From contig CP158635.1 in assembly GCA_050273025.1 (NCBI GenBank), positions 11,160,001 to 11,224,000 of the forward strand: a stretch of DNA of 64,000 bases. The letters run 5' to 3'. Position 1 is the stretch's first letter. Each line of letters starts with the position of its first letter. Below are positions 7,858 through 54,578 of this stretch, piece by piece. The notes under the pieces are model-generated. The model saw only the letters and a list, made by a program, of their open reading frames with translations. It was not told where the DNA came from and searched no databases. The position numbers were made by a program, and so were the translations under genes. This DNA is from Cenococcum geophilum (lineage: Eukaryota).

Positions 7858-9049
7858 TCACGTCAGCTGATCTAAACGACTGGGCTAGGGTACATATGGG
7901 CAAAAAGGGTCGCAGGCAAAAAAGGCCATGTATACGACCGAGGGTATAGCTAAGGAAAATAAAGGGAATTTTAAAGAGATCGTGTAAGCGTCTTAGATAC
8001 CTAGAAGTAAAAATAGAAGTTCGGGGCTAAATGGATTTCCTAGACCTCGTCCGAGGTTTAACCGCGCACTAAACCGTTTTAGCTTAAACCTTTATTAAAA
8101 AGTTCTAGTACGCGCTTTGGATTTTATATCGTATATATACTAAAAGATCTTTAGGTAAGCCTAAGAATTAGTTAAAATTTGGTCCTAGTTACCTAATAGG
8201 GGATATACTACCTTACGTGCTATCCTATTAAATTCGCGACCGACTAACCTCTTTTTTACCCCTTACTGCTTAAATATCTTTTATCTTCTACCTAGTTACT
8301 ACTCTCTATCTACTACCTAAATACCTTCTAATTATATATTTTATACTACTTATAAATAGTATCCGTGGCCTTCGTAGCTGCGCCTTGACCACCCACCCGA
8401 AGGGTGGGTGGTGGATATCCAAATCGCCAGGACACCTCAATCGCCAGAGTTTAAAAGAATTAATTATATAACACCACCACATTAACAATTATAAGTCTTT
8501 CTACTGCTTATACGCTTTATTATATTTATTATATTTATCCCTAGCGTTATTAAAAGTCTTAAGCTCTAGTATTAGTGATTTAGCCTTCTTTTTACGCTTA
8601 TTTGTGAGCTTTTTTTTTAATCTATTTTTCTTTTTTTAGCTAATAAACGGCCTTTAGCTATTATAATTACCCCAAATTTTTATATAACCTTTTCAGTATT
8701 GACTTTTTACTTTTAGCATTACTTAATTTTAATTTTAGTGTTTTTTAATTACTATTTAAAGGGTTTAAAAGCTTAAAATTAGGTATTTGCTTTATAGACA
8801 TATTTTTATATAGCCTTATTTAGGTTTTTATTTTCCTATTTTTACTAATTATATTTAATATACTAAGTTAAGTTACTTATCTACCTAATTATCTTTAATA
8901 TAATAATATTAATAGTCTTTAATATTAAGTTTTTTTTTGTATAGTCTTATATAATAAAAGCAGTTTATTAAATACTTTTTTAGGCTAAGTAGGTAAAGTA
9001 TAGCCTCTATAAACACTACTTTAGTTATTATTTTTGTAAATATATATTT

Positions 9050-10072
9050 ATTATTATTCATTCATTGCTTAATGTCTGATACGGATCCTATGCGGCCCAC
9101 GCAGACTACTCCATACATAGGGGAAACTTATAAATTTATAGGAAGAAAACCCCTGATATATTGGGGGAGGAAAAACCCTATGAGCCACCTCAGTAGGATA
9201 AAAAACCCCGAATTACCATGCCTGTACGTAGCAGCAGCCCTACGGGCCTACAGCTACGTCCTCCTCCTTAGATGTTTTAAACTCCTTAGGAACTACTGCT
9301 TCCTTCTTTAGCTTATCCAAAGCTAGGGTTCACTACGTCCTAGCTAGGCCTTGCTAATTAATTACCGTGTGCTTATAGTTGTGTCCTATATCTTAACCAC
9401 CCCCTATATACTATCTCTTATTAACTATTACCATATACGCCTTGCCTCCCCCCCCCTAAGGCCTATTAAAGGCGTAAGGGGGATTTATCCGTTCTACTAT
9501 CCTAATACTAAAAGCCGAGAGCGGGATGTGTGTATATATATTTAGGTATCTTTTATACCTAGGCCCTAGTTACTAGGCCCTCTCTAAGGGCACTACTCTA
9601 TTAAGAGGAGACAAGGAAAACCATACGGGGTTATCCGGCTACCGGTTTCAGTAGTATTATAGCAGTATAGCGAGTGACCGCATACTCCGCGGGCGATCGC
9701 CTTAGGGGTTAGGAGGGGCCGTATATTTACTTATTTATTTGTTCGTTCGCTCATTTATTAATATAAGGTTATTAATGCCTTTAACTGGGGGTCAGGGGAT
9801 GTTATTAAATACTAAGCATCTATATTAGATCATACAGGTGCCCTAGATAGGAGAATAGTGTAGTAGTCGTTATATTATAGAGGGCCAACAGTAGTGGTTT
9901 TTAAGATCTCACCATCCAAAAAATTTTCACCACCGCCCTTAACGCCTACAACCACCACCAGGTCCTATCCGCACGCTATGCGACGTCTCTGCGTTGGCTC
10001 TAGGTCTAAACTTCGAAGACCCAGGTTCGTAGCCGTTACCACGTATAGGTGCAGAGTCCGGTTTCGACGGCC
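9050..10072 (-). mobile_element. Non-autonomous SINE-like retroposon: HDV-like ribozyme head, non-coding body, LINE-like 3' tail
   Basis: 17-bp TSD TTTGTAAATATATATTT at 9033-9049 and 10073-10089. The 3' ~100 nt (GGAGTAGTCTGCGTGGGCC..GGATCC..TTAAGCAATGAA plus an AAT tail) match the LINE 3' end at 54457-54560. No credible ORF. Confidence 0.85.
9987..10072 (-). ncRNA. HDV-like self-cleaving ribozyme fold (nested double pseudoknot), RIP-mutated at 3 positions
   Basis: Minus strand: P1 GGCCGTC, J1/2 GAAACCGGA, P2 CTCTGC, P3 ACC, L3 TATACGT, P3' GGT, P1' AACGGCT, P1.1' AC, GAAC, P4 CTGGGTCT..AGACCTAG, AG, J4/2 CCAAC, P2' GCAGAG. G1.U wobble, L3 U..CG and catalytic C (9997) followed by xAA are all in the canonical order. 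Confidence 0.85.
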
Positions 10073-11150
10073 TTTGTAAATATATATTTTAGAAGTATAT
10101 AGCCTATTTAGTACTATAAATAAATAGTAGTTTAGTAAAATCTATATAACAGTTAACAGGGATATAATTAATAAATTATTTAAGCATAAAAATGCTAAGG
10201 CGTTACCTAATAATATTTTTTTTAATATTATTTATAATATAATACTTCCTTTTTTATAATTATTAAGTTATCTACTTATTATAGATCAATTTAATTAAGA
10301 CTTTTGTCTAGTAACGCGTTATTTAATGCGACCGTATAAATTATAAATTTTATGCATTACCTTTATAATTAAAAAATATATACTATTATAGATGGCTTAA
10401 GTAAGGCAAGCGACCTAGTTTTCAATTCATAGATAATTACTTATTGTGGTGGTTGTGTAGTAATTAAATATTTAAGAAAGTTGATTAATTCTGGCGATTG
10501 AGGTGTCCTGGCGATTTGGATATCCACCACCTACCCTTCGGGTGGGTAGTCAAGGCGCAGCTACGAAGGCCACGGATATAACTCTTTTACTAACTTTATA
10601 ACATATTATTATAGAGCTCTATATAAGACCTATAACTTTTATAGAGTATAATTCTTTATTTACTCTTTTTTAATATACTACCTTTTTAACTCTATATATA
10701 AGAGAGAAAAAATGGATAGTTTTATTAATAGCCTTTAGCAGACCTTCCGCAGCCTATAAACTAAACTATAGCCGCTACTACCGCCACTACTACTTCCGCC
10801 GCTACTTCTCCCTCTACTTCTCTCCTCCTTATACTGCCTATATTAATCTAGCTATAACTACCTATATTAATTTAGCCGTAACCTACTATAATTAACCCTA
10901 TTATAGGCTAGTTAAATATTAGGCCTATTATTACAGTCCGCCCTATTACGGAGCAGCTAAATCTTAGTTTTATAAACGTTATATATAACTTCTACATAGC
11001 CCTATATTAAATTAATAAATATATTAATATATCGCAGTCTAGTAATCTATAATTTAAAGCCTACTATAAGCGTAGTAATATAAACCTCTTTCTATTCTAG
11101 CTTCCGTTAAAATATCTACGCAAACTTTTAGAGTCCTATAGTACTTTTAC

Positions 11151-17163: not shown

Positions 17164-19785
17164 ATAATTCATTGCTTAACGTCCGATTTGGATCCCTATT
17201 ACTGCCGTAACAAGCCTACGGATGCGCTAGTATCACAAACTTTTACTCTACTACTGTAGAGTTACTAGGGGGCACCTGCTGCTCGCCCCCTTGCCTTCTA
17301 TTACTATTTCCCTTATAACCCGGAACTAATTTAGCATATTTTAGCTAATAAGCCACTAGGTAACCGCCTTAAGGCCTTTTTATATTAAGAGCAGTGTATT
17401 ATAGTTCTCTATACTAGCTACTAAGAGCATTATTTCTCAATTAGTGCGTAGGGGGCATAGCAGTATTACGTATTTTGGTGTCTATCTTAGCCAGCTATAT
17501 TCGCATTTCGGGCTACCTACTAGGATACCCACCTAGTAAAGCCAGTTTTTTAGTCCTATTATTCCTATTCTTAAGAGTATTGCTATTATATTTTCTACCT
17601 TTATTAGGCCTTCTTAGAGCTCTTAGGTATTTACCCCCTATAGCATTAACCATACTATAGCTTGGATTTGTCTTACCTAAGTTAGCCTCTATACTTTTAA
17701 CTCCTATTCGCCTCTCCAGCGTTAATCTAACCAGTATTATATTACGGTAGATGGTTTCCTAGCGTTCTTACGTATTCTACTTTAGCTCCTTTCTCTATTT
17801 TACTATTATCTTTACTAACCTCTTATATATCTCCCTTCCTCCTCTATATAGGCCTGGGCCCTAAAGCGGCACTATTCTTCTTCTACTTTCTTTACCTATT
17901 TCTCTAATATCTCTTCCCTACTTTAGGGTTATTAGTTTATTCTCCTACAGGGCACCCTAGGGTCCCTCTATAGTTTACTTAGGCGTGTCTTAATATACTT
18001 TATAACATTAGAGTTACGTTTATTTTGCGTCCTTTATATTACAGCGGCTTTAATATATAACTGTAGGGGGGGAATATTAGATTCCTTCTTAAGCAGTGCT
18101 GTAGCCGTTCGCTTATACCCGCCTATAATACTCTAAAGGCAGGCTATTTAGACCTTTTAAAGTAATTTAAGGAGTAATTTAGGGGGGCCCTTCTTAGTTT
18201 CTCTAATGGCCCAAATACTAGATCTATATATTATGGTTAGCCGGACGACTGCTATATATAGTAGGCGTAACCTTTAGAAGTATGGACCCTATGTAGAATT
18301 AATAATCCTAGATAAAGTGATAAACTATACTTGGCCTTTACAGGCCGCTTACGCCATATATACGCTCCACCGGAGCTTACTGTCTACCTATACTCCTAAT
18401 ACCCTTAGGCCCTAAACTGGTTAACCCCTAAAGCCTTAAATGCAAATTATATGCTAGAAATCTATAGATTGGTTGCGTTTTCTTATAAAATAGATTAGCT
18501 GGTATTTCTCTAGTAAGAATTAAACTCTATAACGTTTTGCCTATTCTATATAAGTATTATAGGCTTTCTCTAGTATTCTGCAATTCTTTACGGCTATTGG
18601 CCTATATATAATTAGGTTTATGTTATTAATAAAGCCTATCCCCTAGGTCGCCCCTTTCTTAAAGGAGTTAAGCAGGTTGCTTATAAAGAAAAGGAAGAGT
18701 ATAGGCAAGAGGGGTGATCCTTGTGGTATTCCTATTGCAACTGCAATAGGGGGGCTCTGGTATCCGCTAAAGACCTATAATGTTTCTTTCTGGCCTGTAA
18801 ACCCTTAGACAAATTGTATAATCCATTCTGGGAAGCCCTTTGCCCTAAGGATATGCAGAAGACGCTCGTGGGGTATATTATCGTAGGCACCACTAATATC
18901 TAGGCTAAGCATTAATACTACAAAGTCCTTTCACATCGCCTATGCAGATTTAATAGTGGCAGTAAGTAGCGTAAGTGCTAATAGTATTGAGCGGTTCTTT
19001 CTTACCCCTATTTAGCTTTATAGTAGTAGGGCGTATTCCTCTACCGTATCTGCTATACGTTCCGCTATTACCCTTTCTAAGATCTTACTAAGGGTATTTT
19101 CTAAGGTAATAGGGCGGTAGCTTCCTAGGATTAAGTAATCTGCTTTACCTTCTTTTTATAGGATAACCGTTATTATAGATCTTCTAAGTCGCGGGTAGTA
19201 GCCTATAGCAAAGTATACTCTAGCTACATCTGCAAGCTAAGGTGCTATAAGTAGCCTATAGGTTTTTAGGGCCTTATTTAGAATCCTATCTGGTCCTAGT
19301 GCTATATTATTTAAAAGGCGGCTAATAGTTCTAGCCATTTCCTCTATTGTTATATCGCTGTTGACCCGCAGGCGAGTTACTGGTGTTTCGCCCGTAATAT
19401 TACTAAGGTCTACTGGAGCCGGTTAGGGGAAGAACCTTTTTATAAGGATCTTTGACTTCTTATTGTTGTCGTTTATAGCCTGTAATTCTCCTACTCTTTA
19501 TAGGGGTAGTAGGTATAGGTCTTCTACTAGGCGCCCTGCCTTTTTCTTTACCTATTTTGCTATAGCCTAAAGGCCCTTATTATAGGGGAGGCTTGGGTTA
19601 GAAGTATACTTATTTATAAACCGTCTCCAGTTATTCCTTGCTTCTTTTTTTAGGGTATTTTTTAGCTAGTTTTTTATATCTTTATATTGTCTCTCGTCTT
19701 TAGGGTTATAGCTACTTATATATTTCCTTCTTACTTATTATTAGCTAGTAACTAGAACTGCGCATTATATAAACTATATATATCG

Positions 19786-22700
19786 TGTTACAGACGCTTT
19801 AAGTACAATGTTACGACTACTTAGAGAGGAGTCGGAAGAAGCTAGTTGGTTAATACAAGCACGGTCCAGGATGGAACCCGTGGAACTATATAATAAGGAA
19901 TAGTAGCCAAGGTCACATAAGGTGCTATGAGGGGAACGTAAGGAATAGAGGGAACTCACGTACCTTACGTATAAGACGTATATTACGTACAAGAAGGATT
20001 TTATAGGAGTACGGTTGTGTATTTAAGGACCCTCAGTCCCTACCTAGATAGTTCCTTCCTTATAGTAATTCTCAGAATATAATTAGAGTTAATCTATTAG
20101 GCAACCACTCCACCAGTTATTATTATGTTATTAACTTACTTGTAATACCTATACACCTAGCCTATTAATAAGTCCACCGTAGTCTCTACTATAAGGCTTC
20201 GTTACACAATTACTACTACGGTTACGGTTTTAATAAGTTAAATAATATGCCACCAAAAGCAGCCACTATAATGCCATTAACGGCAGCAACTACGTTAGGA
20301 TTAGGTAATAACACCAGTATGGCAGACACTAACTTATAATAACCTATAATAGTAGGATAGTTATAAACGATAGTTAATTAGTTAATAGGAGATAATGCGG
20401 CACTTAAAAATAGGATTAATGGGATAGGAGTAGTAAAGGTTAAGTTACTATTGATTAAAAAATTCTTAGGAGAAAGATTAAAGCTTAAAGGATTCCTTAC
20501 GCAAATACACTTTAAGGTTACGTAGGAAGGAGTAAAGCTAGCAATAACTATGGATTAAGTAGCATATACAGGATTATTCTTATTAGGAAGAGCACTTAAA
20601 TAGTTTAAGCCTTACCTTATAGAGATATAAGTAAACGGAATAATAATAACGAACTAAGAAGTACGGTTTATGTTTTTAAGCTAGAATAGATTTATAGAGC
20701 GACTTATATAAATATTTAGGGACCCAAAAGCAATAACTATAGCGGAAAGAAAGCTTTAGGACCTAACGTAATAGACTTTAGCAATTAAGTACACGATATA
20801 ATTCTAAACGCTAGCTATATAACTTAAGTAAAATAATAAGGCGCTTATAGCACAGAATAAACAGGGACTTAAGGCTAAAGTCTAAGATGTAATTATTCTA
20901 ATAGAAGATGCGGACACCCTAAGGGAATTAATAGATTAAGTAATTAAAATTAATAATAGGATCTTCCAAAGGGAACAGGCTAAGAGGGGCTAGGATAGAG
21001 TTCTATAGTTATATAAGACGTAGAGCACGCAACGACTAAAGCTAAATTAGAAATTATAGTATAGCGCAGAGCTAATGGACCTAAATGGTACCAAAGAAAC
21101 CTATAAGAGATGGAGTAAGAAACTATAGAAACCTAGAGGTTAAGGATTAAGCGATTATAGGACTAAGGAGTATAGGCTAAACCAAGGATCTTAGCAGTAG
21201 AAGATGTTTAAGCGGACTCTATAACAGAAGCAATAGTTTAAAGAAGGAGCTTATATAAATTACAAAAAATAGGGTTATTTTGCTAGAGACTGTAGAAGTG
21301 GTTAGAGTTATTACGTAGTAAAGGGAACTAGACTAGCAGTATGTGATATATACGTACAGTGAGATAATAGTGTGCTACAAGGAACAAAAGAGTGTTTAAT
21401 TAGAAGTTTTGCGTTTTGTTATAACAATATATGCCGAATTTATAAAAACGCTAAGTACGGTATAAGCTATTAGCCATAAGAGCTAGAGTTAAAAGGACTT
21501 AGAGGAACTAAAGAGTTAGATAAAAAATAAGATTAACTTTACGAGCTGGATTAAAACGTTATAGTAACGTGCGGATAAAGATTAGTAATAGTAATAATGG
21601 AGTTGGAGTACTTATTAATTAATAGTAATAAGGACAGTAAAGGAACTAACTAGGGGTATCTAAACCTTAATAATGTAATAGAAGTAGAGACTGAGACCGC
21701 TATAGAGCAAGGTTTAGTAACGGGTATTATAACACCGTTAGATACGGCATCTATCGCTTTATAAGACGGAAGGAGTAATATTTAAAGACGATTAAGCAAG
21801 CAGACAACTACTAGTGCTAGCTTACCACTTAATAAAGGTAAAAGGCCAAAGGCTTAAGATTTTTAAGACGAGATAAGAGACGACTAAGATTCTTAAGATA
21901 AAATAAGGTATACCTAAGGACCTACAACGGACGAAAACTAATAGAGCAGAGTAGCAGCTTAGTTTAAAGATATATAAATAAGCTTGGGATAAGAATTCCT
22001 AAGGGCATAAGACTTTTAAGACGAGATGAGTAAGATCTAGGACTCTTAAAACGAGATAAGGACACTAGTGAAGCCTAGTTGGATTAAGGCTGGAGCTAAG
22101 CTTAAGTTAAAAGCAAGCTTAGGATTAAAGAATCTAAGGGGTTAAGAATTTGGGGTATAAATTAGAACACCTAAGAGGCAAAGAGCTTCTTTATAGATTA
22201 GAGAATCTGCAGCGCAAATAGCAATTAGACTAGGAGACAGATATATAGACCTAGAGGACTTACTAGGGGAACATAGTGTTTAGCCTAAAGATTGAAAAGT
22301 TAATACTAAAATTAAGAAGTATAAAGACTTTAAGGACCTACTTGTAAGACGCGACGTAAAAGAAACCATAGAGGAATTTAGGGTAAGAATTACCTTATGG
22401 TAAGAACAGAAACTAGACAAAAGATCTAGCATATTGGGACGTATAAAGGACAGAGTACTAGTATAAAGAATTACTAATAGGCCTAGAATAGGCATATTAA
22501 GAGTAAAGTAGCTTACTAAACTAGAACAAGAAGAGGATCTAGGGATTCTTACTAGGTTTAAAGAACGATATACTAAAGGCTATTATAACGCAGTAATAAA
22601 GAGATATTTCCTTACGGATAAGCTATATACACTTAAGCAGCTATACTAAAAGTGGTATAGATAATAACACAATAATAAGTGAGAAGATTTCTATATGTGG

Positions 22701-25700
22701 TTAGACGAAAAAGTTATTTAGGACCACCTAATTATAGAAAAGGCTATAACTTATATTAAGGGGGCCTTAATTATAATATTAAAGGATCTAGAGGAGTAAT
22801 TAGAAAACTAAAGAAGTGAAAGATAAATCTTAGTACCCGCGAATAAAGTTGTAACGCTTAGATTAATATAAGAGAGGTTTAAACTTAAGGACGAAGACGA
22901 GCTAAGAGTTAACCTAAGATATTAAGCATATTATACACTATTATGGATAGTATATATAGATAATGCATATAATATATATAAGACACCAAAGGATAAAAAT
23001 CGGAAGTATCTAATAAGGATGTATTGGATAACGGATAAGGCGAAATATAGAAATGCTAAGTATATATATAGTTAGCACCTAGTGGAAGTTTAAAAATAAG
23101 GGGACTTGATACTTTAACCAGGAAGATTCCTTATAGAAGAATGCCTAGACGGATAACAATGGTAGGAATGTCCAGAGAACACCTATTTATGGTATATTAA
23201 GGATAAAAAACGAACTAAGTATTAGCCTAAGTTAGACCAAGTATAAATAGGATCTAGCAGCTAATAGTTAGGAAAAGTAGAGGCCTATAGGACTAGAGGG
23301 AGCTAGTAGTAGAGCCTTAGACCCTTAAGGGAATTTAAGGATAATACCTAAATTTATGAGTTAAATGGCAAAATTAACAGTTCGAGGTATTAATAGATAG
23401 TGGAGCAATAAGGAACTATATCTTACTAGCAGTAGTAAAAAGAATAGGATTACTATATAGGTAAAAGGAGTGTCCTTACCTATTAGTGATAATTTTAGGA
23501 GATCTAATAGCCTATGGAGGAGGTATTATTAATCTTAAAACAGAACTAGTTTAGCTAACTATTAAAGGAAGATAAATTGAGATGTCCTTTAATATATTAC
23601 TATTAGGGAATAATAAGGCAGTATTAGGAATGCCTTAGTTATAGGAATATAATCTAAAGATTAATTAGGTTATAGGTTAGGTTAATATTAAAGATACTTA
23701 ACGCTGTAAGATGCAATAATAAGCTAAGCTGGTATAGTACTAAGTAGGAGCGACCTATAAAGAGACAGAAAAAGGATTAAGTTATATACTAAAGAGATAC
23801 TATAAGTATGGCAGAAAACTATAATCACCTAAGAGTAAAAAGCTGTTAGAGTATGTAGTATAGGACTATAAAATAGAATTAGAACTAGGAATAAGTCTAA
23901 GGTTTTTTCTAATCTATAAGCTTACTAAAGAAGAAGGTAAAGCATTAAAAGAGTTTATCTAAGAAAACTTATGAAAGGGATATATTAGACCATTATAGTT
24001 ATTAGCGGGTTATCTAGTATTATTTATACTAAAAAAGAATAGCAAACTAAGACTATATATTAACTATAGATAGTTAAACAGCATTACCAGAAAGGATAGG
24101 TATCCTTTACCCTTAATTAGCAAAATCTAAGATAGGATAGGTAATACGCAAATCTTTACAAAAATAGATCTAAGATAGGCATACTATTAGATTAGGATTA
24201 AGAAAAGCAACAAATAAAAGGCAGCCTTTAGGTTAAAGGAAGGACTATATAAACCACTAGTTATACAATTCGGGCTTATAAACGTACTAGCAATGTTCTA
24301 GAAGCGTATTAATAATATATTAGGAGAATATTTAAATGAATTTATTATAGTATACCTTAACAATATTATTATCTACTTAATAAGTAAGGAAGAATATAGA
24401 GAACACGTTAAATGGGTCTTAAAGAGACTATAGGAAGAGTAAATGCTAGTAGCAATTAAGAAATGCGAGTTCTTTACTAGGAAGACCGATTTTATTAGAT
24501 TTATTATTAAACCAGGCCAACTTAGTATAGATTTAAAGAAGATTAAGGCTATAGTAAATTAGCAAGAACTAGAGAATATTATACAGTTAAGATCGTTTCT
24601 AGGGTTTTATAATTACTATAGAAGGTTTATAGCGCAATAGTTAAAAGATATTAAACCATTTATATAACTAACAAAGAAAGAAGAACTATAGGTATGGGGA
24701 GAGAAACAGCGAGAACTCTTTAAAAAAGTTAAAGAATTATTTACTTAGAAGCTAGTTCTTAAGATCTATTAACTAGGACTAGAGACGGTTATAGAAACAA
24801 ATATATTAAACTTTGCACTAGGAGTATATTTTATACAAAGGCATCTAGATAAATGGCATTTAGTAGCATACTATAGTTGGAAGATAACACTACTAGAGTT
24901 AAACTATAACATCTATAACAAGGAGTTATTAGGTATAGTTACAGCACTAAGGGAATAGAGAGCATTCTTATAAGGCACTGAAAAACTATTTATAGTTAAA
25001 ATAGATTATAAGAACCTAATAGGATTCCTAATAATAAAGGAGCTTAACTAAAGATAGGTTAGATGGGCAGAGATGCTTACAGAATACTATTTCAAAATTT
25101 AGTACACTAAGGGTACAGACAACACGCGAGCCAATGCGTTAAGTTAAAAGGCTAAACTATAAAATAACGATAAGCTATTAGGGGCTTTACTATAAAGAGA
25201 TATAGATAGACTGATTAGGTATAATTATCTAAAGATTATAGCAACGTAAGAAAATAAGTTAGAAAAGGTCTATAAGATATTAGAAAGCTTTTAGGTATAA
25301 AGGATTCTAGAAGTATAACTAGAAGACCTATAGTTAAAAATATACAAAAACCAAAAAGTAAAGTATATCCTAAGGAGCATAGCAGAGTAGTTTATAGAGG
25401 AATTCTATAAGGGACTAACTTAAAAACATAATAGAGCAACGGGCTTAGTGTTAAGACTCTAGGAGGAGTATATTATTAATAGAATCTAAAGGATAGCTAA
25501 AAAGGTCACTAAAGAGTGTCTAGATTACTAAAGAAATAAACTAATAAGGCATAAGCTATATGGAGGGCTATAACCTATTAAAATACCAGAGAGACTATAG
25601 GAAGTTATATTATGGGACTTTATTATTAAGTTACTAAAGTTAAGAGACCCTATTACCAGATAGGATTATAATGCGATCCTAGTAATAGTAGATAAGCTTA

Positions 25701-27796
25701 CAAAGTGGGAATACTTTATAGCCTATACGGAAGAAATCTTAGCGGAAGATGTCGCTAGAATCTATATTAAAGAAGTATTTGTAAGATATAGAGTACTAAG
25801 TAAAATTATATTAGATAGAGATCTAAGATTCGTAGCAGTATTTTAGGAAGTATTCTTGGCGGAATAAGGAGTTTAAGCAGTAACTTCTACCGTATATTAT
25901 CTACAGATAGACGGTTAAATGGAAAGATTAAACTAGATACTAGAGCAGTATTTAAGGCACTATATTAATTACGTATAGAATAATTAGGTATCGCTATTAC
26001 TAGTTATATAATTTACATATAATATAACACCATAAGAAGGAATGGGTATGTTACTATTTAAGGCGAATTATGGATATAAGCTAAGAATATTATTATCGCC
26101 ACGATAAGTAAAGAAAACGAGTAGTAAAGCTAAGTAAAGAATGGAGACTTTAATAAATCTTTATATAAACCTTATAGAAACAGCTAAGACAGTATAATAA
26201 AGAATAAAAAAGTATTATAATGCTAAGAGATCTAAGGGACTAGATCTTAAGGAGGGAGATAAAGTATAGCTACTATATAAAAATTTCAAGAGCTGACAAT
26301 TAAGCAAGAAGTTAGACCATGTTAGGTTAGGACCTTTTAAAATTATATAAAGGATTTTACTGGTTATGTTTAAATTAAACCTACTAGCCAAAATAAAGAT
26401 CTACCCTATATAGTACATTGCAATATTAGAGCTAGTATACAGAAATATTAAGCCACTAATCTATAAGGCAGACACGTATAGAGGATAAAAAGAAAATAAA
26501 TAGTAAGTTTTAAAGATCGTTAGTTACGAGGATATAGATAATGAAATATAGTATAAAGTAAAGTGGATAGGCTATAATGAGACTACCTGGGAGCCACTAG
26601 AGAATCTAAAGAACGCTATAGGAAAGGTACAGAAGTATTAGAAGAAAAAAGGTTAGGTAATATTAATAAAGAGAAATCGCTAAAGAACGAGCCGCCTAAG
26701 GGGGACCTAGGAAGAGTAACTGCTGAACTACTTAGAGTTATTTCCTTCTCTATTAAAAGAAAATCCGTTCTTTTATTACCAAGTTCCTATAGACCTTATT
26801 TTATAAGTTTCCACTCCTTAAAATAAACCTTCTTACGCACCTTCTTAAGACGAAGTAGATAGGTAGACGCCGTAATATAAGCATCTAAGGCCTTCTATTC
26901 CGCATTCTAAGAATGCTTAAGCTTAGCAAGGGCCTGCGCTAGGTTACTATTAAGCTTCGTAGTAGCAGATTAAATATAAAACCCTATAATAAATTACTTA
27001 GGGAACTTAAAGACTGTTAAGAGTTATAGGACGCGTATACTTAGCGTTAGAGGTAGAGCGAATATCATAAGACGATTAAACGTTTGCTTTGGTGCACTCT
27101 AAATAAGAGGAGGGTTGCCGAGATAAAGGACTCACTAAGGCGATATATATTAGCCCCTTCTTTAAGTAACAAGAATACAAAGATAGCATTATTTTACTAA
27201 GTGATAATATTACAGTAATAGTGCGAGCGCGACATTGCGCGTATAAAGAAGAAGAAGCTTTAGGTATTATAAGTAACAATATTAACCAAATTAATTAGAC
27301 GGATATTACACCTCTAGTAAATAACTTAGAGATGCTAGGTATCTTTAAGGACGAAGATAGAAAGGAGGGAGATAGTGTTACGGACGCTTTAAGTATAATG
27401 TTATAACTACTTAGAGAGGAGTTAGAAGAAGCTAGTTAGTTAATATAAGTATAGTCTAGGATAGAACCCGTGGAACTATATAATAAGGAATAGTAGCTAA
27501 GGTTATATAAGGTGCTATAAGGGGAACGTAAGGAATGGAGGGAACTTATATACCTTACGTATAAGACGTATATTACGTATAAGAAGGATTTTATAGGAGT
27601 ACGGTTGTGTATTTAAGGACCCTTAGTCCCTACCTAGATAGTTCCTTCTTTGTAGTAATTCTTAGAATACAATTGGAGTTAATCTATTAGGCAACCACTC
27701 CACCAGTTGTTATTACGTTGTTGACTTACTTGCAATACCTATACACCTAGCCCATTGACAAGTCTACCGTAGTCTCTACTACAAGGCTTCGTTATA
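19786..27796 (+). mobile_element. Full-length chromoviral Ty3/Gypsy retrotransposon family B (8011 bp), RIPed
   Basis: 421-bp LTRs at 19786-20206 and 27376-27796. TSD TATCG at 19781-19785 and 27797-27801. PPT 27361-27375. gag ATG 20247 (MPPKA), CCHC ~21251-21293, protease LIDSGA (23391), RT YL(DD) (24353), integrase GPF (26330), chromodomain VKWxGY..TWEP (26560-26600). Confidence 0.96.
26720..27267 (-). pseudogene. Antisense extra gene of Gypsy family B with de-RIPed Cys6 (Zn2Cys6-like) motif and a putative intron
   Basis: ORF-track peptide ..LYSCYLKKGLIYIALVSPLSRQPSSYLECTKANV*SSY. Reading TAT/TAC as RIPed TGT/TGC gives C-x2-C-x6-C-x13-C-x2-C-x8-C. A homologous segment lies at 34200-34800. 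Putative intron ~27039-26984. The 3' end is approximate. Confidence 0.6.
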
Positions 27797-30581
27797 TATC
27801 GCGCGTAGGGGCCCGGTTTTGAGATTAGGTAGTGCTCTTTTAGCCTATTTTTAATTACTGCCTAGATCCTTTCTAGTCTTTGGTTAATTTCCTTAAGGGT
27901 GGCCAATAAGCCTTGCTTGTTTAGTATTGGGTAGATTTCTTCTAGGTCTTAGAGTTGTTATTTAACTGTATTAAGGAAACTGTCTATCTTAAGCTTCCTT
28001 ATTGCGTATCTTTTTCTATTTAGTTACGCTTTAGTATTTAGGTCTAGCTATATCTAGATAGGGATATAGTCTAGGGTAAGTACCTATTCTTCTTTAGGGT
28101 TGCACCTTTTAAGTCTCTAGTATAGGCCTTCGTCCATAAATATAAGGTTAATTGTACTTCTAGCGGTGCCTTGTTGCTATATAATTACTCCTAGGGGGGT
28201 GGCTAGCTTAAGGCCCTAGATATCTATAGCTCTTAGTAGGCACTTTAACTATTAATCTACAGCAACATAGATACCCCCCTACCGCGGGTAGTAGAGGTTT
28301 ATATCTCCTAATAGGATAGACTCTATACCTTTGGTTTCTAGTAAGCTTATTACTAATATAATATTCTCTGTTTATAGGACCCCTTTAACCCTAGAGTTAT
28401 ATATATTAATAATTTATACCGGTCCCCTATATGTTTAGATTATTATAACTATAATATCTAGGTTAACTGCCTACTATAACTATAAGGACAGGCTAACAGC
28501 CTTACTAATTATAAAGCACACGCGTATAGCTGCTTTTGGTTTATATAGGAGCTAGAATCCTTGGGGGCAGTATATTAATTATATAAAGGTATTATAATAC
28601 GGCTCTTATATAGTAAGGATATAGTATTTCTCTAGGTCTAGACTATCTAGTAGGGGCCTTATAAGGCGGTAGTTTGTGTTACCGCAGTTATACTATATAA
28701 TAGATAGGTAGCGGACCCCCAGTAAGGGTCCTTTAACTTTTCTTTATTCCTTACTTCTTCTATTTCCACTTTCTCTAAGATATTTAGAGCTTTTGTCTCT
28801 TATATCTATACCCTAGTTACTACTTATTTTATATAGAGCTTTTTATTCCTATGTCTTATATTCCTGTTAGCGCTTCTATATCTAAATCTGTTATTATTAC
28901 CGGTTCTTCCCCTATTCTTACTAGTCGGCTATATACCCTTTATGGGTCGGCTGCGAATATTATATTTACCGCATTAAGTCTAATTCTTAATTATCCTAGT
29001 CTTAAGCCTGCTGTTGCTGTCTATAGGGGTCTTCCTACGGGGCGTCCTCTCCCTTATGTCCCCTGTGACCCTTATGTCCCTAATTGGTCTAGTGATGTCG
29101 CACGGCGTCGCTTCTGGCCCGTTAAGGCTTAGGATAGCTGGCCTAGCCCTCTAGTATTAAAGGTAGGAAACGCTAGAAAGGCACCTGCGTCCCCCTAGCT
29201 TATCGCCTGTTATTTCTATTTATATAACCTAGTATGCAGTTATTCCCGCAGCTGTTAAGCCCTTATCTTCTGTCTCCTGTATTTAATACAGTCTTCTCTC
29301 TCCTACGCCTTATATGTGCTTCAGTAGCAGTTTACGCATTTTATTTAGTCTTAATTTAAGTAATGTCTCGTATTATGGGGGCCTGTATAGTAGCCGCAGT
29401 ATACCTATACTGCGTATATAGATTGGGTATGTCCCCATTATATATAGTAATAGTATTATTCTAGGCGTAGTCTGTAGTTATAGAGCCTTGTGTTATATAT
29501 AAGGCCATTTATAATTATTCCTTTTTAGATAAGGAGTTTTTGCATTCCTAGTATATATGTGCTGACAATAAGGGAGCCATACGTTCGTCCGGCGTCTCCT
29601 TAGTAAGTCTCCGGCGACCCTTATATCCTCTTATTATTCTTATTATATACTTAGTTTGCATTTTCCTATTAAAGCCATTAGATTTAGGTGATTTTAAGTC
29701 CTGGTATAAGGTGTTCCGTTTATCTTACTATCTTCTATATAATTGCTGTGTTATCTACCTAGCGTCCCTTTTCTACCCTAAGGCTTATAGGAACCGCTAG
29801 GACTTCAACTAGGTAATCCTCGCGGAGTACTTTTATGCCAATACGTTCTCCTAGCCTATCCCCTACCCTTACGGCTCGTTCCTTTGCCTATTGGTCCTTT
29901 AGGGTAACTCTAATATCTCCGCTCTTAAGGTATTGGACTGTAATAGCGTTATAAACCTCTTTGTGTATCTTTATAAGGACTTCTGTTTCTAATTATCCCC
30001 TAAGCCCCTCTACTTATTCTATATTTGGTCGTATTATAATTATATACCCAGTTATTAACTTAAGGGGGGTAGATTCCCTATACTATAAAAGCGCAGCTAC
30101 AGCAGCCCAGGTGCGGTTCGCTGGTAAGGGGGGGTTATACTTATTTTTAATTTTGCTTAGCCGTTAGAGGATTTAATTAAGAGTTTACTAAAGGGGCGCC
30201 TAAGGTTCGCTAGACTAGCGGAGCTATTCTGCTAGCTGCATTAGTTTGTTATAGCTAACGGTTACTTCCTTATAATTCTGGATACTAGACGCGTCTAATA
30301 GGCTTTATATTTTATTAGATGCCTTCTTAATAGAGGTATTTCCGCTTTATGGTGTAGTATTCGCCCGTCTTTATTGTAGAGGGCCATTGCTAGGCGTAGT
30401 TCTAGCGGTCACGCGCGAGTGCGAGCCACCGTTATTTAACGTGTGCCTCCCCTATAATGCATACATCTTAGGGGGATTCTCTAGGTGTTTTTCAGGGTTC
30501 TTTTGGTTAGTTTTAGTCTTTTTGGGCCGGGTGTAGCAAGAGCTCCTTTTTTGGAGATAGATATATAGACCTAGAGGACTT

Positions 30582-35103: not shown

Positions 35104-37115
35104 ATACGGCGCGCTTAATTATTAAACCGTAGCTTACTATTTAGCGTTATTAATAATAAGTATATAGGTATAGATAGCGACGGTAATAGCTATAGAACAG
35201 AGCCGACCGTCTTTAATAGTAATACCGATAGTAATGCTAATAGTAACGCCGACTATAACACCAATAGTGGCATTAACTGTAACGCTAATAGCATTGCTAG
35301 ATCTAACGATGCTTACGAAGCGCTCGCTTAAGTATAGCTTTATAAGGATTAAGACCATCTGCTAAAATACTACCTTAAATAGTTAGAAGAGTTTAAGGAA
35401 TCTAATTTTACGACGTAGGACTACGCCAATGCCACTATAGCTCTCCTTAACCACATTAAAGAATACTAGTATTAGTAAGTAATAACCTATTTAGTGGCTT
35501 CCTTTTAAGCCTAACTTAGTAGAGAGCTAATAATTTCTAGATACTGCACCTATATAAGGAAAGACCCTAAGAAAACGTACTAAGTCCTTTTACTTTAGCT
35601 CCTTTATAGCTTCTTTAACTAGTTCCTAAACTAAAAATAAGGGAAAGATAGTAGAAAATAGTATAGGATAAAGGTTTTTAGCTCGTTTAGCCTATACTAG
35701 AAGTACTATCGCCTTATATATAAGAGAGCGACCAGTAAGAAAATTGCTAGTAAACTAACCTGCTAGATATATAAGGTGATTATATTTTTAGTTAATCCTT
35801 TAACCTAGTAAGGTAAGGCAAAGCTAAGATATCTTTCTTAGGTACTTTGGAAACTGGTAAAGAAATATAGTTTAAGCGATAAAAAGTAAGAAAAGACTGT
35901 TATAGACGTAGAGGATCTCGCCCTAGTCTTTAAGACTAACTTAGTTATAATAAGGAAGCGATATATAGTTAGATAATATTAGATATAAGTGCATTTCTTA
36001 ATATAACTAGGTCTTTGCACTATAAGCTAACCTAAAGCTCTTCTAAACCTATACTACCGACATATAATAGTTATACTTATTTAGGACCTAAAGGGCGGTC
36101 CCTATAATATCGTGCTTAAGTTTATATTCAAATTTATTAAGGAATATCTTAGTATAAAGAAAGCGTGTGTTATCTCTATCCTATTTCTCTTACCTTATAC
36201 TTATAGAGAACTAGTAATACTTTCCTAATTTTAGAGATTATTTTTAACCCTTTACTTATTTTTAGCCCTTACGTCTTTTTCCTAGGCCTCTTTTTTACTA
36301 ACTAAGCTTTTAGAGCCCCTAACCTAATATCTACGGAGTAGCTTAGTAAGCTATATATTAAGCCTAGGTGTAACTAGTTACTACTACTACTCCGTTTAAA
36401 CCTAGATAATATCCCCGTATTTTAGCAATTAATTAAAGCTTTTTATAGCTATAAGGTCTTACCTAATTAACCTTTATAGTACTTAACTTTTTTGCCGTAG
36501 ATTAAGGATCTTGGCGTAATTATAAGATTTTGGCAGGTTGCGCGCCTATATAGTCTCCGTTATGGCGTAGGTAAGGCATTTAATAAGAATAGTAAGTTCT
36601 ATTATATAGAGCTAGTCCTACTAAGACATTTCTAATATCTTTACTACCTAGGTAATGTGACTAATGCCCTCCGGAACCTGATAATGTAGTACGCTAACGC
36701 TTAAACGTTCTTAAAGCACTACCTTTTATAGCGTATTGACGTAGATATATAAGCAATTGTTTAAGGCTTAGAGCCTTAGGAAAAGTTAATAAAAGCGGCA
36801 TGCTAAATAAGTTAATTAATTAACCTGTGGCGGCTATAGAACCTAATAAAAGAATAATCCTTATCAGTTAATAAGAACCTATATATTTGTTCCTTAATTA
36901 AAGTTTAAAATAAGCTAAAGTATAGCCTTAAGCGTAAAGTTGTAGAAAGTATAGAATACTAAAAGCTTAACTAGGAAATTATAAATGAAAGACAACGTTA
37001 AAGAAATTCGCTATTAGAAAATATTAAGAAGAATTAGGACAATAAATAAGCTGTAATTAATATTAAGCGGCAACTTTCTAGGGTTAAATTTAGCGAGGAT
37101 ATTAAAGCAAAGTAA
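35104..37115 (+). pseudogene. DUF3435 tyrosine recombinase (Starship captain-type), multi-exon, RIP-inactivated
   Basis: Acidic N-terminus, then de-RIPed HPPEYYL..F..SDF...DYA..T (35354-35437), EKTVMDVEDL (35890), ASRPKALL (36020), RDPKGGP..IVLEF.FEFTKEYLG (36080-36150), IPEIIFDPSL.FSPHVF.LGL (36226-36290), RPYSLRYG.GKAF (36543-36582), LRNL.MQHA...TFLKHYL.R....D.QAIVRG.EPQ (36669-36779), AVIDIERQLSG (37048-37083). The C-terminal end is uncertain. Confidence 0.85.
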
Positions 37116-52750: not shown

Positions 52751-54578
52751 CCAAGGGTTTATAGGCCAGAAAGAAACATTACTAGTCTTCAGCGGATACC
52801 AGAGCCCCCCTATCGCAGTTGCAACAGAAATACCACAAGGATCACCCCTCTCGCCTATACTCTTCCTTTTCTTTATAAGCAACCTGCTTAACTCCTTTAA
52901 GGAAGGGGCGACCTAGGGAATAGGCTTTATTAACAATATAAACCTAATCACATACGGGCCAACAGCCGTAGAGAATTGTAGAACACTAGAGAAAGCCTAT
53001 AACACTTATATAGAATGGGCAAAACGTTATAGAGTCTAATTCTCACCAGAGAAATACCAGCTAATCTATTTCATAAGAAAACGCAACTAATCTGCAGATC
53101 TCTAGCATATAATTTGCATCTAAGGCTTTAGGGGTTAACCAGTTTAGGGCCTAAGGGTATTAAAAGTATAGGTAAATAGTAAGCTCTAGTAGAGCGCATA
53201 TACGGCGCAAGCGGCCCATAAAGGCCAAGCATAGTTTATCGCTTTATCCAGGATTATTAATTCTATATAGGGTCCATACTTCTAGAGGTCACGCCTATTA
53301 TATATAGCAGTTATCCGGCCAACCATAACATATAGATCTAGTATTTAGGCCATTAGAGAAACTAAGAAGGGCCCCCCTAAATCACTCCTTAAACCACTTT
53401 AAAAGGTCCAAACAGCCTACCTCCGGAGTATCACAGGCGGGTATAAGCGAACGGCCACAGCACTGCTTAAGAAGGAATCCAATATTCCCCCCCTATAATT
53501 ACATATTAAAGCCGCTATAATATAAAGGACGTAAAATAAACGCAACTCTAATATTATAAAGTATATTAAGACACGCCTAAGTAAACTATAGAGGGACCTT
53601 AAGGTGCCCCATAAGAGAACAAACCAACAACCCCAAAGTAGGGAAGAGATATTAGAGAAACAGGTAAAGAAAGTAGAAGAAGAATAATGCCGCTTTAGGG
53701 CCTAGGCCCATATAGAGGAGGAAGGGAGACGTATAAGAGGTCAGCAAAGACAACAGCAAGACAGAGAAAAGAGCCAAAGTAGAATACGCAAGAACGCCAG
53801 GAAACCATCTACCGTAATATAATACTAGTTAGACTAACGCTAGAGAGGTAAATAGGAGTTAAAGGTATAGAGGCTAACTTAGGCAAGACAAACCTAAGCT
53901 ATAGTATAGTTAACGCCATAGGGGGTAAATACCTAAGGGCTCTAAGAAGGCCTAACAAAGGCAGAAAATATAATAGTAATACTCTTAAGAACAGGAATAA
54001 TAGGACTAAAAGACTAGCTTTACTAGGTAGGTGTCCTAGTAGGTAGCCCAAAATATAAATGTAGCTAGCTAAAACAGACACTAAAACACGTAATACTACT
54101 ATACCCCCTACACACTAATTAAGAAATAATGCTCTTAGCAGCTGGCATAGAGAACTATAATACACTACTCTTAACACAAAAAGGCCTCAAGGCGGTTACC
54201 TAGTAGCTTATTAGCCAAAATATGCTAAATCAGTTCCGGGTTATAAGGGAAATAGTAATAAAAGGCAAGGGGGCAAGCAGCAGGTGCCCCCTAGTAACTC
54301 TACAGTAGTAGAGTAAAAGTTTATAATACTAGCGCGTCCGTAGGCTTATTACGGCAGCAGTAGTTCCCAAGAAGGTTAAATAGTAAGGTAGTAGAGTACC
54401 ACAGGCGACTTATAGGCGCTAAGTAGGCGAGTCCTAAAAGGCGGGGAGATGGATTACGGGGTTTTCTTATTTTTCTTAAATAGAGTTTTCTCCCCATATG
54501 TAAATAAGGAGTAGTCCGCGTGGGCCTAATAGGGATCCAAATCGGACGTTAAGCAATGAATTATTATTATTATTATTA
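52751..54578 (+). mobile_element. 5'-truncated copy of the Tad1-like LINE
   Basis: Reverse-complement match to 17164-18808. IPQGSP at 52830. (ATT)n tail 54560-54580. TSD TTATATAGTATAGG at 52737-52750 and 54579-54592. Confidence 0.93.

What the first reader, a model, noticed from the sequence alone, without database searches (positions are those of the whole stretch)
9050..10072. Ribozyme-headed SINE-like retroposon: HDV-like self-cleaving RNA at the exact 5' end, LINE-like 3' tail
Seen in sequence: a 1023-bp non-coding insert is bounded by a 17-bp TSD. Its first base next to the TSD (10072, minus strand) is G1 of a complete HDV-like fold: P1 GGCCGTC/AACGGCT with a G1.U wobble, P2 CTCTGC/GCAGAG, P3 ACC/GGT, 7-nt L3 TATACGT, P1.1, P4 CTGGGTCT/AGACCTAG and J4/2 C-C-A-A. 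The three imperfect pairs (P1 position 7, P1.1, one in P4) all become Watson-Crick if a single RIP-type TpG>TpA or CpA>TpA change is reversed. The restored P1.1 is GT/AC instead of the usual CC/GG, which is a covariation. The last ~100 nt are a diverged match to the 3' UTR of the Tad1-like LINE at 54457-54560, yet I see no ribozyme at that LINE's own 5' end (30552). Established: HDV-like ribozymes define the 5' ends of R2, L1Tc and other non-LTR elements and of R2-derived SIDEs, and SINEs hijack LINE RT through shared 3' tails. Inference: this is a Pol III-independent fungal non-autonomous retroposon that cuts itself out of read-through transcripts and is mobilised by Tad1-like RT.
Basis: partly seen in the sequence, partly recalled or inferred. 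Interest (0 to 1): 0.93.

Follow-up and report, generated by a model that had tools for sequence, protein, structure and literature searches.

The report
Ribozyme-headed fungal SINE-like retroposon
A 1-kb non-coding jumping element in a fungal genome starts exactly at a hepatitis-delta-type self-cutting RNA fold and ends in a tail borrowed from a LINE, which suggests what such ribozymes do in fungi.

Summary
The insert is 9050-10072 on the minus strand, with a 17-bp target-site duplication (TSD). It is one RIP-damaged copy of a very abundant family of about 1 kb. A scan of metagenome contigs gave 121 heads, and 113 of 120 start with G at the predicted G1, with unrelated upstream DNA. Of 48 full-length copies (981-1057 nt), 39 have an exact 10-16-bp TSD that ends right before G1. 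The HDV-like double pseudoknot is not chance: a strict descriptor gave 0 hits in 4.86 Mb of shuffled sequence. Two diverged sister ribozymes, B and C, keep all 18 core pairs through 5 to 10 double compensatory changes with none broken. The last 70-150 nt match the 3' end of an endonuclease-plus-reverse-transcriptase LINE. That LINE's own sharply defined 5' end has no such fold in 8 of 8 copies. RNA reads are sense-strand and abundant, and none lie in the flanks. Self-cleavage itself is untested. Verdict: a new fungal member of the known ribozyme-terminated retroposons.

The parts
10073..10089 (.). Target-site duplication, copy next to the element's 5' end
   Evidence: the same 17 bases as at 9033-9049.
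9033..9049 (.). Target-site duplication, copy next to the element's 3' end
   Evidence: In the family, 39 of 48 full-length copies have exact TSDs of 10-16 bp.
9050..10072 (-). Whole non-autonomous retroposon, 1023 nt, family A, a RIP-mutated copy
   Evidence: aligns end to end with 48-55 full-length relatives. DNA word depth is 1.4e3-1.7e5 inside versus 59-206 in the flanks. No credible ORF.
9987..10072 (-). HDV-like ribozyme fold, nt 1-86
   Evidence: Descriptor hits. Model R1 scores 123 bits here. 96.2% of cells are paired, versus 30-45% when the partners are slid. Covariation with families B and C.
10066..10072 (-). P1 5' strand; G1 (10072) is the predicted first base after the cut
   Evidence: 95 of 120 heads carry this 7-mer.
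10031..10037 (-). P1 3' strand (nt 36-42). The A at nt 36 (10037) is a RIP change; the family has G.
   Evidence: at 10037 T>C in 1266 of 1280 RNA reads (first mate on +), and in X1 word depth 59,940 of 61,833. C-G in 86 of 100 heads.
10051..10056 (-). P2 5' strand (nt 17-22)
   Evidence: Three of the six P2 pairs are changed on both sides in family C.
9987..9992 (-). P2 3' strand (nt 81-86)
10038..10050 (-). P3 (nt 23-25 with 33-35) enclosing the 7-nt L3 (nt 26-32)
   Evidence: In family C two of the three P3 pairs are changed on both sides. U at L3 position 1 and A-C-G at positions 4-6 are invariant in A, B and C.
10029..10030 (-). 3' half of P1.1 (nt 43-44), pairing with nt 27-28 (10045-10046)
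   Evidence: at 10046 T>C in 1219 of 1222 RNA reads, so nt 27 is G in the family. G27-C44 in 71 of 100 heads. Families B and C have C-C pairing with G-G instead.
10000..10024 (-). P4 hairpin (nt 49-73)
   Evidence: length variants of 14-29 nt keep the hairpin in their un-RIPed forms; nt 52/70 is GC 46, AU 25, GU 23, other 6.
9993..9999 (-). J4/2, with the candidate catalytic C76 at 9997
   Evidence: The C-[C/A]-A-A motif is kept in A, B and C.
9050..9119 (-). LINE-type 3' tail (nt 954-1023) ending in a short AAT/AATG repeat
   Evidence: 85-91% identical to the last 70 nt of LINE copies; alignable for about 150 nt, with a stem that covaries between element and LINE.
52753..54570 (+). 3' fragment of the partner LINE, followed by an (ATT)n run
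   Evidence: An RVT_1 fragment lies at about 52806-53070.
17202..30546 (-). Second partner-LINE copy with its true 5' end at 30546, split by an ~8-kb insert (27801 to 19766)
   Evidence: No HDV-like fold at its 5' end.

Best explanation
This is a dead, RIP-mutated copy of a high-copy, ~1-kb, non-coding non-LTR retroposon of a filamentous ascomycete.

Its RNA begins with an HDV-class double-pseudoknot ribozyme. I infer that the ribozyme cuts immediately 5' of G1, which would trim any upstream transcript and give every RNA the same 5' end.

Its last ~70-150 nt copy the 3' UTR end of an EN+RT LINE, including a stem-loop and a short simple repeat. I infer that the LINE's reverse transcriptase recognises this tail in trans and inserts the RNA by target-primed reverse transcription at AT-rich sites, making TSDs of 10-17 bp.

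The head is not inherited from that LINE. The element is therefore built like a SINE (head + body + LINE tail), with a ribozyme in place of a Pol III gene.

Shown here: the family, its exact ends, the TSDs, the fold with covariation, the shared tail, and sense-strand RNA.
Inferred: catalysis, the source of transcription, and which LINE mobilises the element.
For: - Exact 5' ends.
- Uniform length: 55 full-length HSPs of 140; 48 copies of 981-1057 nt.
- The fold is beyond chance: the strict descriptor gave 65 family hits plus 1 other in 810,281 nt x 2 strands, and 0 in 4.86 Mb of null. The core-only descriptor also gave 0 in the null.
- Covariation over 18 core pairs: A-B 5 double changes, A-C 10, B-C 9, none broken.
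- P4 length variants keep the hairpin.
- Rfam's drz-agam-1 model aligns end to end from G1 in the same register, though only at 16.4 bits, E 8.4.
- The tail is shared with the LINE and its stem covaries.
- An intact relative of the LINE's ORF2 exists: P0001, 71% identity, 1026 aa, EN+RT.
- RNA: first mates lie on + at up to 5251x versus 53x on -, with no reads in either flank.
- No sign of Pol III: no tRNA, no small-RNA family, and T5+ runs in 48 of 48 copies, the first T4+ run at median nt 150.
- Fungal HDV ribozymes do self-cleave in vitro (PMC5640933, section 7 read).
Against: - No cleavage assay has been done.
- No Rfam HDV-type model reaches its gathering score.
- RNA molecule ends pile up at 10060 (594 of depth 1143), 12 nt inside G1. 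No pile-up at 10072 is listed.
- The partner LINE gets an equally sharp 5' end without any ribozyme, so a transcription start could also define G1.
- Families B and C are each a single sequence.
- Within family A the core hardly varies, partly because my search pattern fixed nt 24-48.
- This window's own copy has mismatches in P1 and P1.1 and is probably inactive.
Confidence: 0.77

Rival explanations
1. The exact 5' end is set by transcription initiation at G1 from an internal promoter. On this view the conserved pseudoknot is a structural RNA module (stability, RT or protein binding, IRES-like) and not an active ribozyme. Alternatively both hold, as for Pr77/L1TcRz in Trypanosoma.
For: - The partner LINE has a sharp 5' end in 8 of 8 copies without any HDV-like fold.
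- RNA ends pile up at nt 13, not nt 1.
- A dual promoter-plus-ribozyme head is documented for L1Tc/NARTc (PMC3383444 abstract in the listing; PMC3185411 passages).
Against: - The nucleotides that define the catalytic core stay fixed while the helices covary: G1 on a G.U or G-C pair, U and A-C-G in L3, C-N-A-A in J4/2. That pattern fits selection for the ribozyme fold, P1.1 included.
- Fungal HDV variants cleave in vitro (PMC5640933).
Confidence: 0.15
2. The element is an internally deleted derivative (SIDE/NARTc type) of an unsampled autonomous LINE that carries the same ribozyme head. The head would then be inherited, not separately acquired.
For: - This is the known route for R2 SIDEs (PMC3414825, listing and abstract start) and for NARTc, RIME and SIDER.
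- RNA reads show relatives that share the first ~190 nt and then diverge (loose ends at 9881 and 9885).
- Only about 0.8 Mb of this fungus's DNA could be examined.
Against: - No head in the sample is followed by LINE-body sequence. 55 of 140 HSPs are end-to-end 1-kb copies, and most other heads are cut by a contig or locus end.
- The LINE that shares the tail starts differently in 8 of 8 copies.
- The body has no LINE similarity beyond the last ~150 nt.
- The diverging RNA reads are compatible with other 1-kb subfamilies.
Confidence: 0.1
3. The fold is a chance or reader-fitted pattern in an ordinary 5'-truncated LINE fragment.
For: - Rfam gives no significant hit.
- The MFE fold of the first 88 nt is unremarkable, z = -1.6.
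Against: - 0 strict hits in 4.86 Mb of null.
- Covariation in all core helices.
- Uniform full-length copies that start at G1.
Confidence: 0.01

Closest known systems
NARTc / RIME / SIDER non-autonomous retroposons of trypanosomatids with the Pr77/L1TcRz HDV-like ribozyme (PMC3185411, PMC4035085; passages read)
   Same: A non-coding non-LTR retroposon whose first ~80 nt form an HDV-like ribozyme with the cut at +1. It is flanked by TSDs and mobilised by a LINE.
   Different: In those elements the head is shared with the autonomous L1Tc/ingi partner; NARTc shares its first 77 nt with L1Tc. Here the tail-sharing LINE has a different 5' end with no HDV-like fold. The host is a fungus that shows RIP-type mutation.
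R2 SIDEs of Drosophila (PMC3414825; search listing and abstract start only)
   Same: A 5' HDV-like ribozyme that makes the precise 5' end, plus 3' sequences used by the LINE protein for target-primed reverse transcription.
   Different: SIDEs are internal deletions of R2 and insert site-specifically in 28S rDNA. This family is dispersed in AT-rich DNA with variable TSDs, and its body is unrelated to the LINE.
Fungal HDV ribozyme variants of Li & Breaker 2017 (PMC5640933; abstract, section 7 and Table S1 read)
   Same: HDV-class ribozymes in Pezizomycotina genomes, present in many copies with 'widely variable gene associations'. Self-cleavage was shown for two of them.
   Different: Their variant has an extra nucleotide between P2 and P3 and an E-loop in P4. 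Families A, B and C have no extra nucleotide, and I saw no E-loop. That paper never uses the word retrotransposon (0 occurrences). Its Stockholm alignments could not be read, so overlap with A, B or C is unknown.
Classical SINEs (tRNA, 7SL or 5S head + body + LINE tail); features recalled as textbook knowledge
   Same: Tripartite build, non-coding, a LINE-derived 3' tail, and trans-mobilisation.
   Different: No Pol III gene-derived head. Internal T5+ runs in 48 of 48 copies. About 1 kb long. The head is a ribozyme.
drz-agam-1 (Rfam RF01787), an Anopheles HDV-like ribozyme
   Same: The Rfam model aligns over its whole length (1-82) to the head of L087 from G1 to the end of P2. The same P3, a 7-nt L3 and the same helix register result.
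   Different: Only 16.4 bits against a gathering score of 37, E 8.4. This is a likeness in fold, not a family hit.

Membership tests
HDV-like self-cleaving ribozyme class | Nested double pseudoknot: P1 (7 bp), P2, P3 (3 bp), P1.1 and P4 in the canonical order | tested here: met
   96.2% of cells are paired versus 30-45% when partners are slid. Double compensatory changes with none broken: 5 (A-B), 10 (A-C), 9 (B-C).
HDV-like self-cleaving ribozyme class | Cleavage-site G1 on a G.U or G-C pair at the base of P1, lying at the 5' end of the functional RNA | tested here: met
   G at nt 1 in 113 of 120 heads. The pair is G.U in families A and C and G-C in B. TSDs abut G1 in 39 of 48 copies.
HDV-like self-cleaving ribozyme class | Catalytic C in J4/2 followed by A-A, and a 7-nt L3 with U at position 1 and G at position 6. 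Their roles are recalled from the HDV literature, not taken from a call. | tested here: met
   C-[C/A]-A-A and the L3 pattern U-N-N-A-C-G-N are invariant in A, B and C. C76 and C77 are nearly invariant in 100 heads.
HDV-like self-cleaving ribozyme class | Self-cleavage activity giving a 5'-OH product | not testable with these tools
RNA-seq only shows a coverage edge within 12 nt of G1.
HDV-like self-cleaving ribozyme class | A match to a curated Rfam HDV-type model at its gathering score | tested here: not met
   No hit on the window copy. On 6 un-RIPed heads the best was drz-agam-1 at 16.4 bits versus a gathering score of 37. These models do not encode pseudoknots and are lineage-specific.
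Fungal HDV variant of Li & Breaker 2017 | An extra nucleotide between P2 and P3 | tested here: not met
   P2 runs directly into P3 in A, B and C.
Fungal HDV variant of Li & Breaker 2017 | P4 partly replaced by an E-loop | tested here: inconclusive
   P4 folds as a plain hairpin in family A. Their figure and alignments were not readable.
SINE in the strict sense | A head derived from a Pol III gene with an internal promoter | tested here: not met
   No tRNA, 5S or 7SL match. T5+ runs in 48 of 48 copies.
SINE in the strict sense | Non-coding, a LINE-derived 3' tail, and TSDs | tested here: met
   longest stop-free frames of at most 169 aa lack an ATG and are not conserved between copies; tail; TSDs.
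SIDE / NARTc-type internal-deletion derivative | Both the 5' and the 3' ends shared with the autonomous partner | tested here: not met
   The 3' end is shared. The 5' end is not: the LINE starts differently in 8 of 8 copies.
Tad1 clade (partner LINE) | Phylogenetic placement of the RT with Tad1 reference elements | not tested
   Only RVT_1 and EN+RT relatives without RNase H among the closest hits. No named Tad1 reference was on hand.

The most novel reading that the evidence does not exclude
Canonical HDV-type ribozymes in filamentous fungi, so far reported with 'widely variable gene associations' and no assigned role, may be the 5' modules of a class of SINE-like retroposons. On this reading several covarying head lineages (A, B, C) each carry a ribozyme head acquired independently of the LINE they parasitise. 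They would rely on any passing transcription plus self-cleavage instead of a Pol III promoter. The ribozyme would then be a portable 'make-your-own-5'-end' cassette, functionally replacing the tRNA head of classical SINEs.
Probability: 0.45. Interest if true: 0.75.

Novelty: new member of a known kind. Interest (0 to 1): 0.6.

Why it matters
Ribozyme-terminated retroposons are documented in insects (R2 and its SIDEs), trypanosomatids (L1Tc, NARTc, SIDER) and other metazoans. Self-cleaving HDV variants are documented in 26 fungal species, but without a biological role.

This locus joins the two lines of work. It is a very abundant, transcribed fungal family in which the ribozyme sits exactly at the insertion boundary and a LINE tail sits at the other end. 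That makes a concrete hypothesis testable: fungal HDV ribozymes define retroposon 5' ends.

It also offers three natural, covarying ribozyme sequences for biochemistry, including an unusual G-U/A-C form of P1.1. And it shows a non-autonomous element whose ribozyme head its LINE partner does not share.

In the held paper library I found no report of this combination in fungi. Webb 2009, Webb & Luptak 2011 and Ruminski 2011 were not held, so a prior mention there cannot be excluded.

Tried and rejected
- **Whole genome.** Not held, so copy analysis rests on coded public runs and metagenome contigs.
- **Earlier findings of the scan.** Nothing by sequence, place or words.
- **Rfam.** No significant hit on the window copy, on 6 heads, or on the LINE 5' end. 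The snoRNA-like hits at 9881-9944 (E 2.3 and 8.8) are chance.
- **MFE folding** of nt 1-88 cannot represent pseudoknots, and its z of -1.6 is uninformative.
- **MAFFT alignment A2** misaligned family B's P1 strand. I therefore parsed helices by position in a script and did not run the count of structure pairs on A2.
- **Widening the search.** A generalised core pattern found 0 matches in viral contigs.
- **False positives.** The relaxed-descriptor hits at window 23348(-) and in L051, and the core-descriptor hit in L045(-), are AT-rich and run into neighbouring repeats. I treat them as false positives.
- **Coding capacity** is rejected. The longest stop-free frames (at most 169 aa) lack an ATG, run from nt 1-3 through the ribozyme, and differ in frame between copies.
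- **Literature search** was badly specified and returned unrelated papers.
- **Supplements.** Those of PMC5640933 that hold the alignments are in a format that cannot be read. A motif search of the 3 readable files found nothing.
Full report
**1. The observation**

Read on the minus strand, the window has 17 identical bases at 10089-10073 and 9049-9033, bracketing a 1023-nt insert at 10072-9050.
- P1: 1-7 with 36-42, with G1.U42 and C7 opposite A36.
- P2: 17-22 with 81-86.
- P3: 23-25 with 33-35.
- L3: 7 nt.
- P1.1: 27-28 with 43-44, with A27 opposite C44.
- P4: 49-56 with 66-73, with one G.U pair.
- J4/2: C-C-A-A, with C76 at 9997.

The window is AT-rich, RIP-type repeat DNA with only 3 stop-free frames of at least 120 aa in 64 kb. 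The insert is richer in G+C than its flanks: 0.42 against 0.29-0.31.

**2. It is a member of a very abundant family with exact ends**

No genome is held for this window, so I used public runs and metagenome contigs.

*Reads and contigs of four coded runs, laid on 8900-10250:*
- In the best DNA holder (X1), summed word depth is 1,352-171,882 in the bins inside the element and 59-206 in the flank bins.
- 3,696 contigs were laid.
- Eight contigs break off 'behind' 10072 into flanks that do not agree with each other.
- These depths are not copy numbers, but they show a highly repeated family whose edges coincide with the insert.

*A 25-nt degenerate pattern from nt 24-48, scanned over metagenome contigs:*
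- It found 121 matches in 120 loci.
- Anchored on the pattern, 113 of 120 heads have G at nt 1, and 95 of 120 start with the same 7-mer.
- Five more look shifted by one base only because of an extra A in J1/2.
- Information content is 0.04, 0.04 and 0.28 bits at -3 to -1 and 1.64 bits at +1.
- A weak AT-rich target motif lies at -15 to -10 (0.6-0.85 bits).

*Length and ends:*
- Of 140 BLAST segments, 55 are end-to-end copies. Most of the 71 head-only segments are cut by contig or locus ends.
- 48 full-length copies measure 981-1057 nt.
- 39 of these 48 have an exact TSD of 10-16 bp (mode 14-15) that ends at the base before G1. Nine have none by my exact-match rule.
- Four copies that merely happened to lie in the flanks, and so were not selected by my pattern, all start at nt 1-2.

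The element is therefore not a randomly 5'-truncated LINE.

**3.

The window copy differs from the majority of reads and contigs mainly by A where they have G (51-66 places) and T where they have C (39-54 places).
- At 10037 (nt 36), 1266 of 1280 RNA reads carry the base that restores C7-G36.
- At 10046 (nt 27), 1219 of 1222 carry the base that restores G27-C44 in P1.1.
- Among 100 distinct heads these pairs are C-G in 86 and G-C in 71.
- Nt 71 is C in the un-RIPed P4 variants.

The window copy is thus a damaged one, probably inactive.

**4. Is the fold more than chance?**

*Published models and energy folding:*
- Rfam finds no ribozyme in the window copy.
- On six un-RIPed heads it gives only drz-agam-1 at 16.4 bits (gathering score 37, E 8.4).
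- An MFE fold cannot show pseudoknots.

*My own descriptor.* I required P1 7/7 with G1 on U or C, P3 of 3 bp, L3 of 7 nt with U at position 1 and G at position 6, two Watson-Crick pairs in P1.1, P2 of at least 5 bp preceded by C-N-R-A-N, and P4 of at least 4 bp.
- On 810,281 nt x 2 strands (window plus loci) it hit 65 family heads and one other site.
- On 4,861,686 Markov-shuffled positions it hit none.
- Relaxed to what the damaged window copy meets, it found the window copy and scored 12 null hits, about 2.5e-6 per position.
- A core-only version without P4 also had 0 null hits.

**5. Covariation**

Inside family A the core hardly varies. This is partly by construction, because my pattern fixed nt 24-48.
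- On 100 heads, 96.2% of cells pair, against 30-45% when the 3' partners are slid.
- Double changes are concentrated in P4: nt 52/70 is GC 46, AU 25, GU 23, other 6.
- P4 occurs in length variants of 14 to 29 nt that keep the same closing pairs and fold as hairpins in their un-RIPed forms.

The decisive evidence came from two diverged relatives.
- **Family B** is the one 'other' strict hit, at L072:980. It heads an element of about 1015 nt that ends in (AAT)n, with a tail 80% like the window's.
- **Family C** came from a covariance model of family A (P1+P3+P4). Searched over 779,557 nt, the model recovered all A copies (window copy 123 bits) and B (49.8 bits, E 1e-10). It also gave a weak full-length hit at L051:8-122 minus strand (16.7 bits, E 0.1). 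The core-only descriptor found that site independently.

Across the 18 core pairs (P1 7, P2 6, P3 3, P1.1 2):

| Comparison | Changed on both sides, still paired | Changed on one side | Broken |
|---|---|---|---|
| A vs B | 5 | 1 | 0 |
| A vs C | 10 | 0 | 0 |
| B vs C | 9 | 1 | 0 |

- Every helix is touched, including both pseudoknot helices. P1.1 is G-U with A-C in family A and C-C with G-G in B and C.
- Some positions stay fixed: G1, U and A-C-G in L3, and C-[C/A]-A-A in J4/2.
- From what I recall of the HDV literature, those are the positions that build the active site. This assignment rests on recall, not on a call.
- B and C are single sequences, and C is cut by its contig end after 122 nt.

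**6. The 3' end and the partner LINE**

*Shared tail:*
- The last 65-70 nt of the element match the ends of LINE copies at 82-91% identity, including window 54505-54569 and a weaker match at 17167-17195.
- A MAFFT alignment shows recognisable similarity over about 150 nt. A stem carries a U-A pair in the element where most LINE copies carry C-G.
- Both end in short simple repeats.

*The LINE itself:*
- It is about 5.5 kb.
- All copies seen are RIP-broken, with no frame of at least 120 aa in 8 regions.
- Read with stops as X it has RVT_1 (E 2e-14).
- Its RT region finds an intact 1026-aa EN+RT protein at 71% identity (P0001). The closest relatives lack an RNase H domain.
- I did not test the 'Tad1' label.

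*The LINE's 5' end:*
- It is sharply defined in 8 of 8 copies, including window 30546 on the minus strand, and it differs from the element's head.
- Neither descriptor, nor model R1, nor Rfam finds a ribozyme there.

**7. Expression and polymerase**

*RNA-seq.* In a stranded RNA-seq run of the same species label (X24; 12% of the run was read), first mates lie on the + strand at 13.6-5251x and on the - strand at 2-115x.
- In most stranded libraries this means minus-strand RNA, which is the element's sense.
- There are no reads in any flank bin.
- Reads come from many copies, so this is family expression, not proof for this locus.
- Molecule ends pile up at 10060 (594 of depth 1143), 12 nt inside G1, next to the polymorphic nt 12. 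No comparable pile-up at 10072 and no large set of loose ends there is among the rows shown, and 636 rows were hidden.
- I cannot tell whether this reflects library chemistry, alignment, or a real end. It stays unexplained.

*Against Pol III:*
- No tRNA and no small-RNA family.
- T5+ runs in 48 of 48 copies, with the first T4+ run at median nt 150.
- That such runs terminate Pol III is textbook knowledge.

**8. Mechanism**

*Shown:* a non-coding, ~1-kb, TSD-flanked family with exact 5' ends at G1 of a covarying HDV-type fold, a LINE-type 3' tail, and abundant sense RNA.

*Inferred:*
- The ribozyme cleaves 5' of G1 and trims whatever transcript reads into the element.
- The LINE's RT recognises the shared tail stem and simple repeat, and inserts the RNA by target-primed reverse transcription.

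I put the combined model at 0.75-0.8.

*Rivals:*
- A transcription start at G1, with the fold serving another role or both roles as in L1Tc Pr77: 0.15.
- Descent from an unsampled ribozyme-headed LINE: 0.1.
- Chance: about 0.01.

**9. Comparison with what is known**

- Passages of PMC3185411 show that NARTc shares the first 77 nt, the ribozyme, with L1Tc and cleaves at +1.
- PMC4035085 extends this to SIDER and RIME.
- PMC3414825 (listing and abstract start) describes R2 SIDEs.
[quoted passage not shown] It also says hundreds of intergenic HDV-like copies lie between conserved downstream and varying upstream sequences.
- Li & Breaker 2017 (PMC5640933; abstract, section 7 and Table S1) report 230 HDV variants in 26 fungal species and 11 earlier canonical fungal examples. 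They showed cleavage for two, noted 'widely variable gene associations', and never mention retrotransposons.

Families A, B and C lack that variant's extra nucleotide between P2 and P3. Whether they are among the published examples I could not check, because the alignments are unreadable.

Searches combining the ribozyme with Tad1/non-LTR, fungus, or fungal genomes plus retrotransposon found no report of this arrangement. Three key papers were not held.

**10. Verdict**

This is a new fungal member of the known ribozyme-terminated retroposons. Its notable twist is that the head is not shared with its LINE partner. Interest: 0.6.

Noticed in passing
window 10060 (minus-strand nt 13): RNA-seq molecule ends pile up here (594 of depth 1143), 12 nt inside the predicted cleavage product's first base and next to the polymorphic nt 12. 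No matching loose-end row is among those shown.
   Followed up: partly
window 17202-30546 (-): A partner-LINE copy with an intact 5' end at 30546. It is interrupted between 27801 and 19766 by about 8 kb of other DNA.
   Followed up: partly
window ~31560-32620 (+) and ~35900-36600 (+): Stop-riddled RVT_1 / RT_RNaseH (gypsy-type LTR element) and a strong DUF3435 match (E 7e-51). These are other RIP-degraded mobile elements.
   Followed up: no
window 23348 (-) and L051 (minus strand, position 277 counted on the reverse complement): An AT-rich repeat present in both places meets the relaxed HDV descriptor. It is probably a false positive: the null gives 12 such hits per 4.86 Mb.
   Followed up: no
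L025:3285-3473 (-) and the DNA downstream of it: A family-A head of about 188 nt followed by unique, non-repeated sequence instead of the usual body. This is a truncated or rearranged copy.
   Followed up: partly
L022:411-510 (-) and L022:5695-5794 (+): Two diverged heads face outward at the two ends of one 6.2-kb contig from another metagenome. One reads C-C-G-G-C in J4/2 where family A reads C-C-A-A-C, and both have a longer P4.
   Followed up: no
positions -15 to -10 upstream of G1 in 120 loci: A weak AT-rich target motif (0.6-0.85 bits per position). Most exact TSDs begin with TA, which hints at the endonuclease's nick-site preference.
   Followed up: partly
LINE 5' ends (e.g. window 30546 minus strand) versus element nt 14-25: The first ~17 nt of the LINE loosely resemble the element's J1/2-P2-P3 stretch (same start and end letters, with a few extra bases). 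This may be chance.
   Followed up: no
window 10073-10250, run X6 record 24: A 505-nt contig of another strain's run covers the 5' flank up to 10073 and has 92 more letters that do not lie on the element. This may be an empty site, so the insertion could be polymorphic.
   Followed up: no
window 9881-9944 (-): Weak C/D-box snoRNA-like Rfam matches (18 and 15 bits, E 2.3 and 8.8) in the part of the element with the highest RNA depth. I treat them as chance.
   Followed up: no
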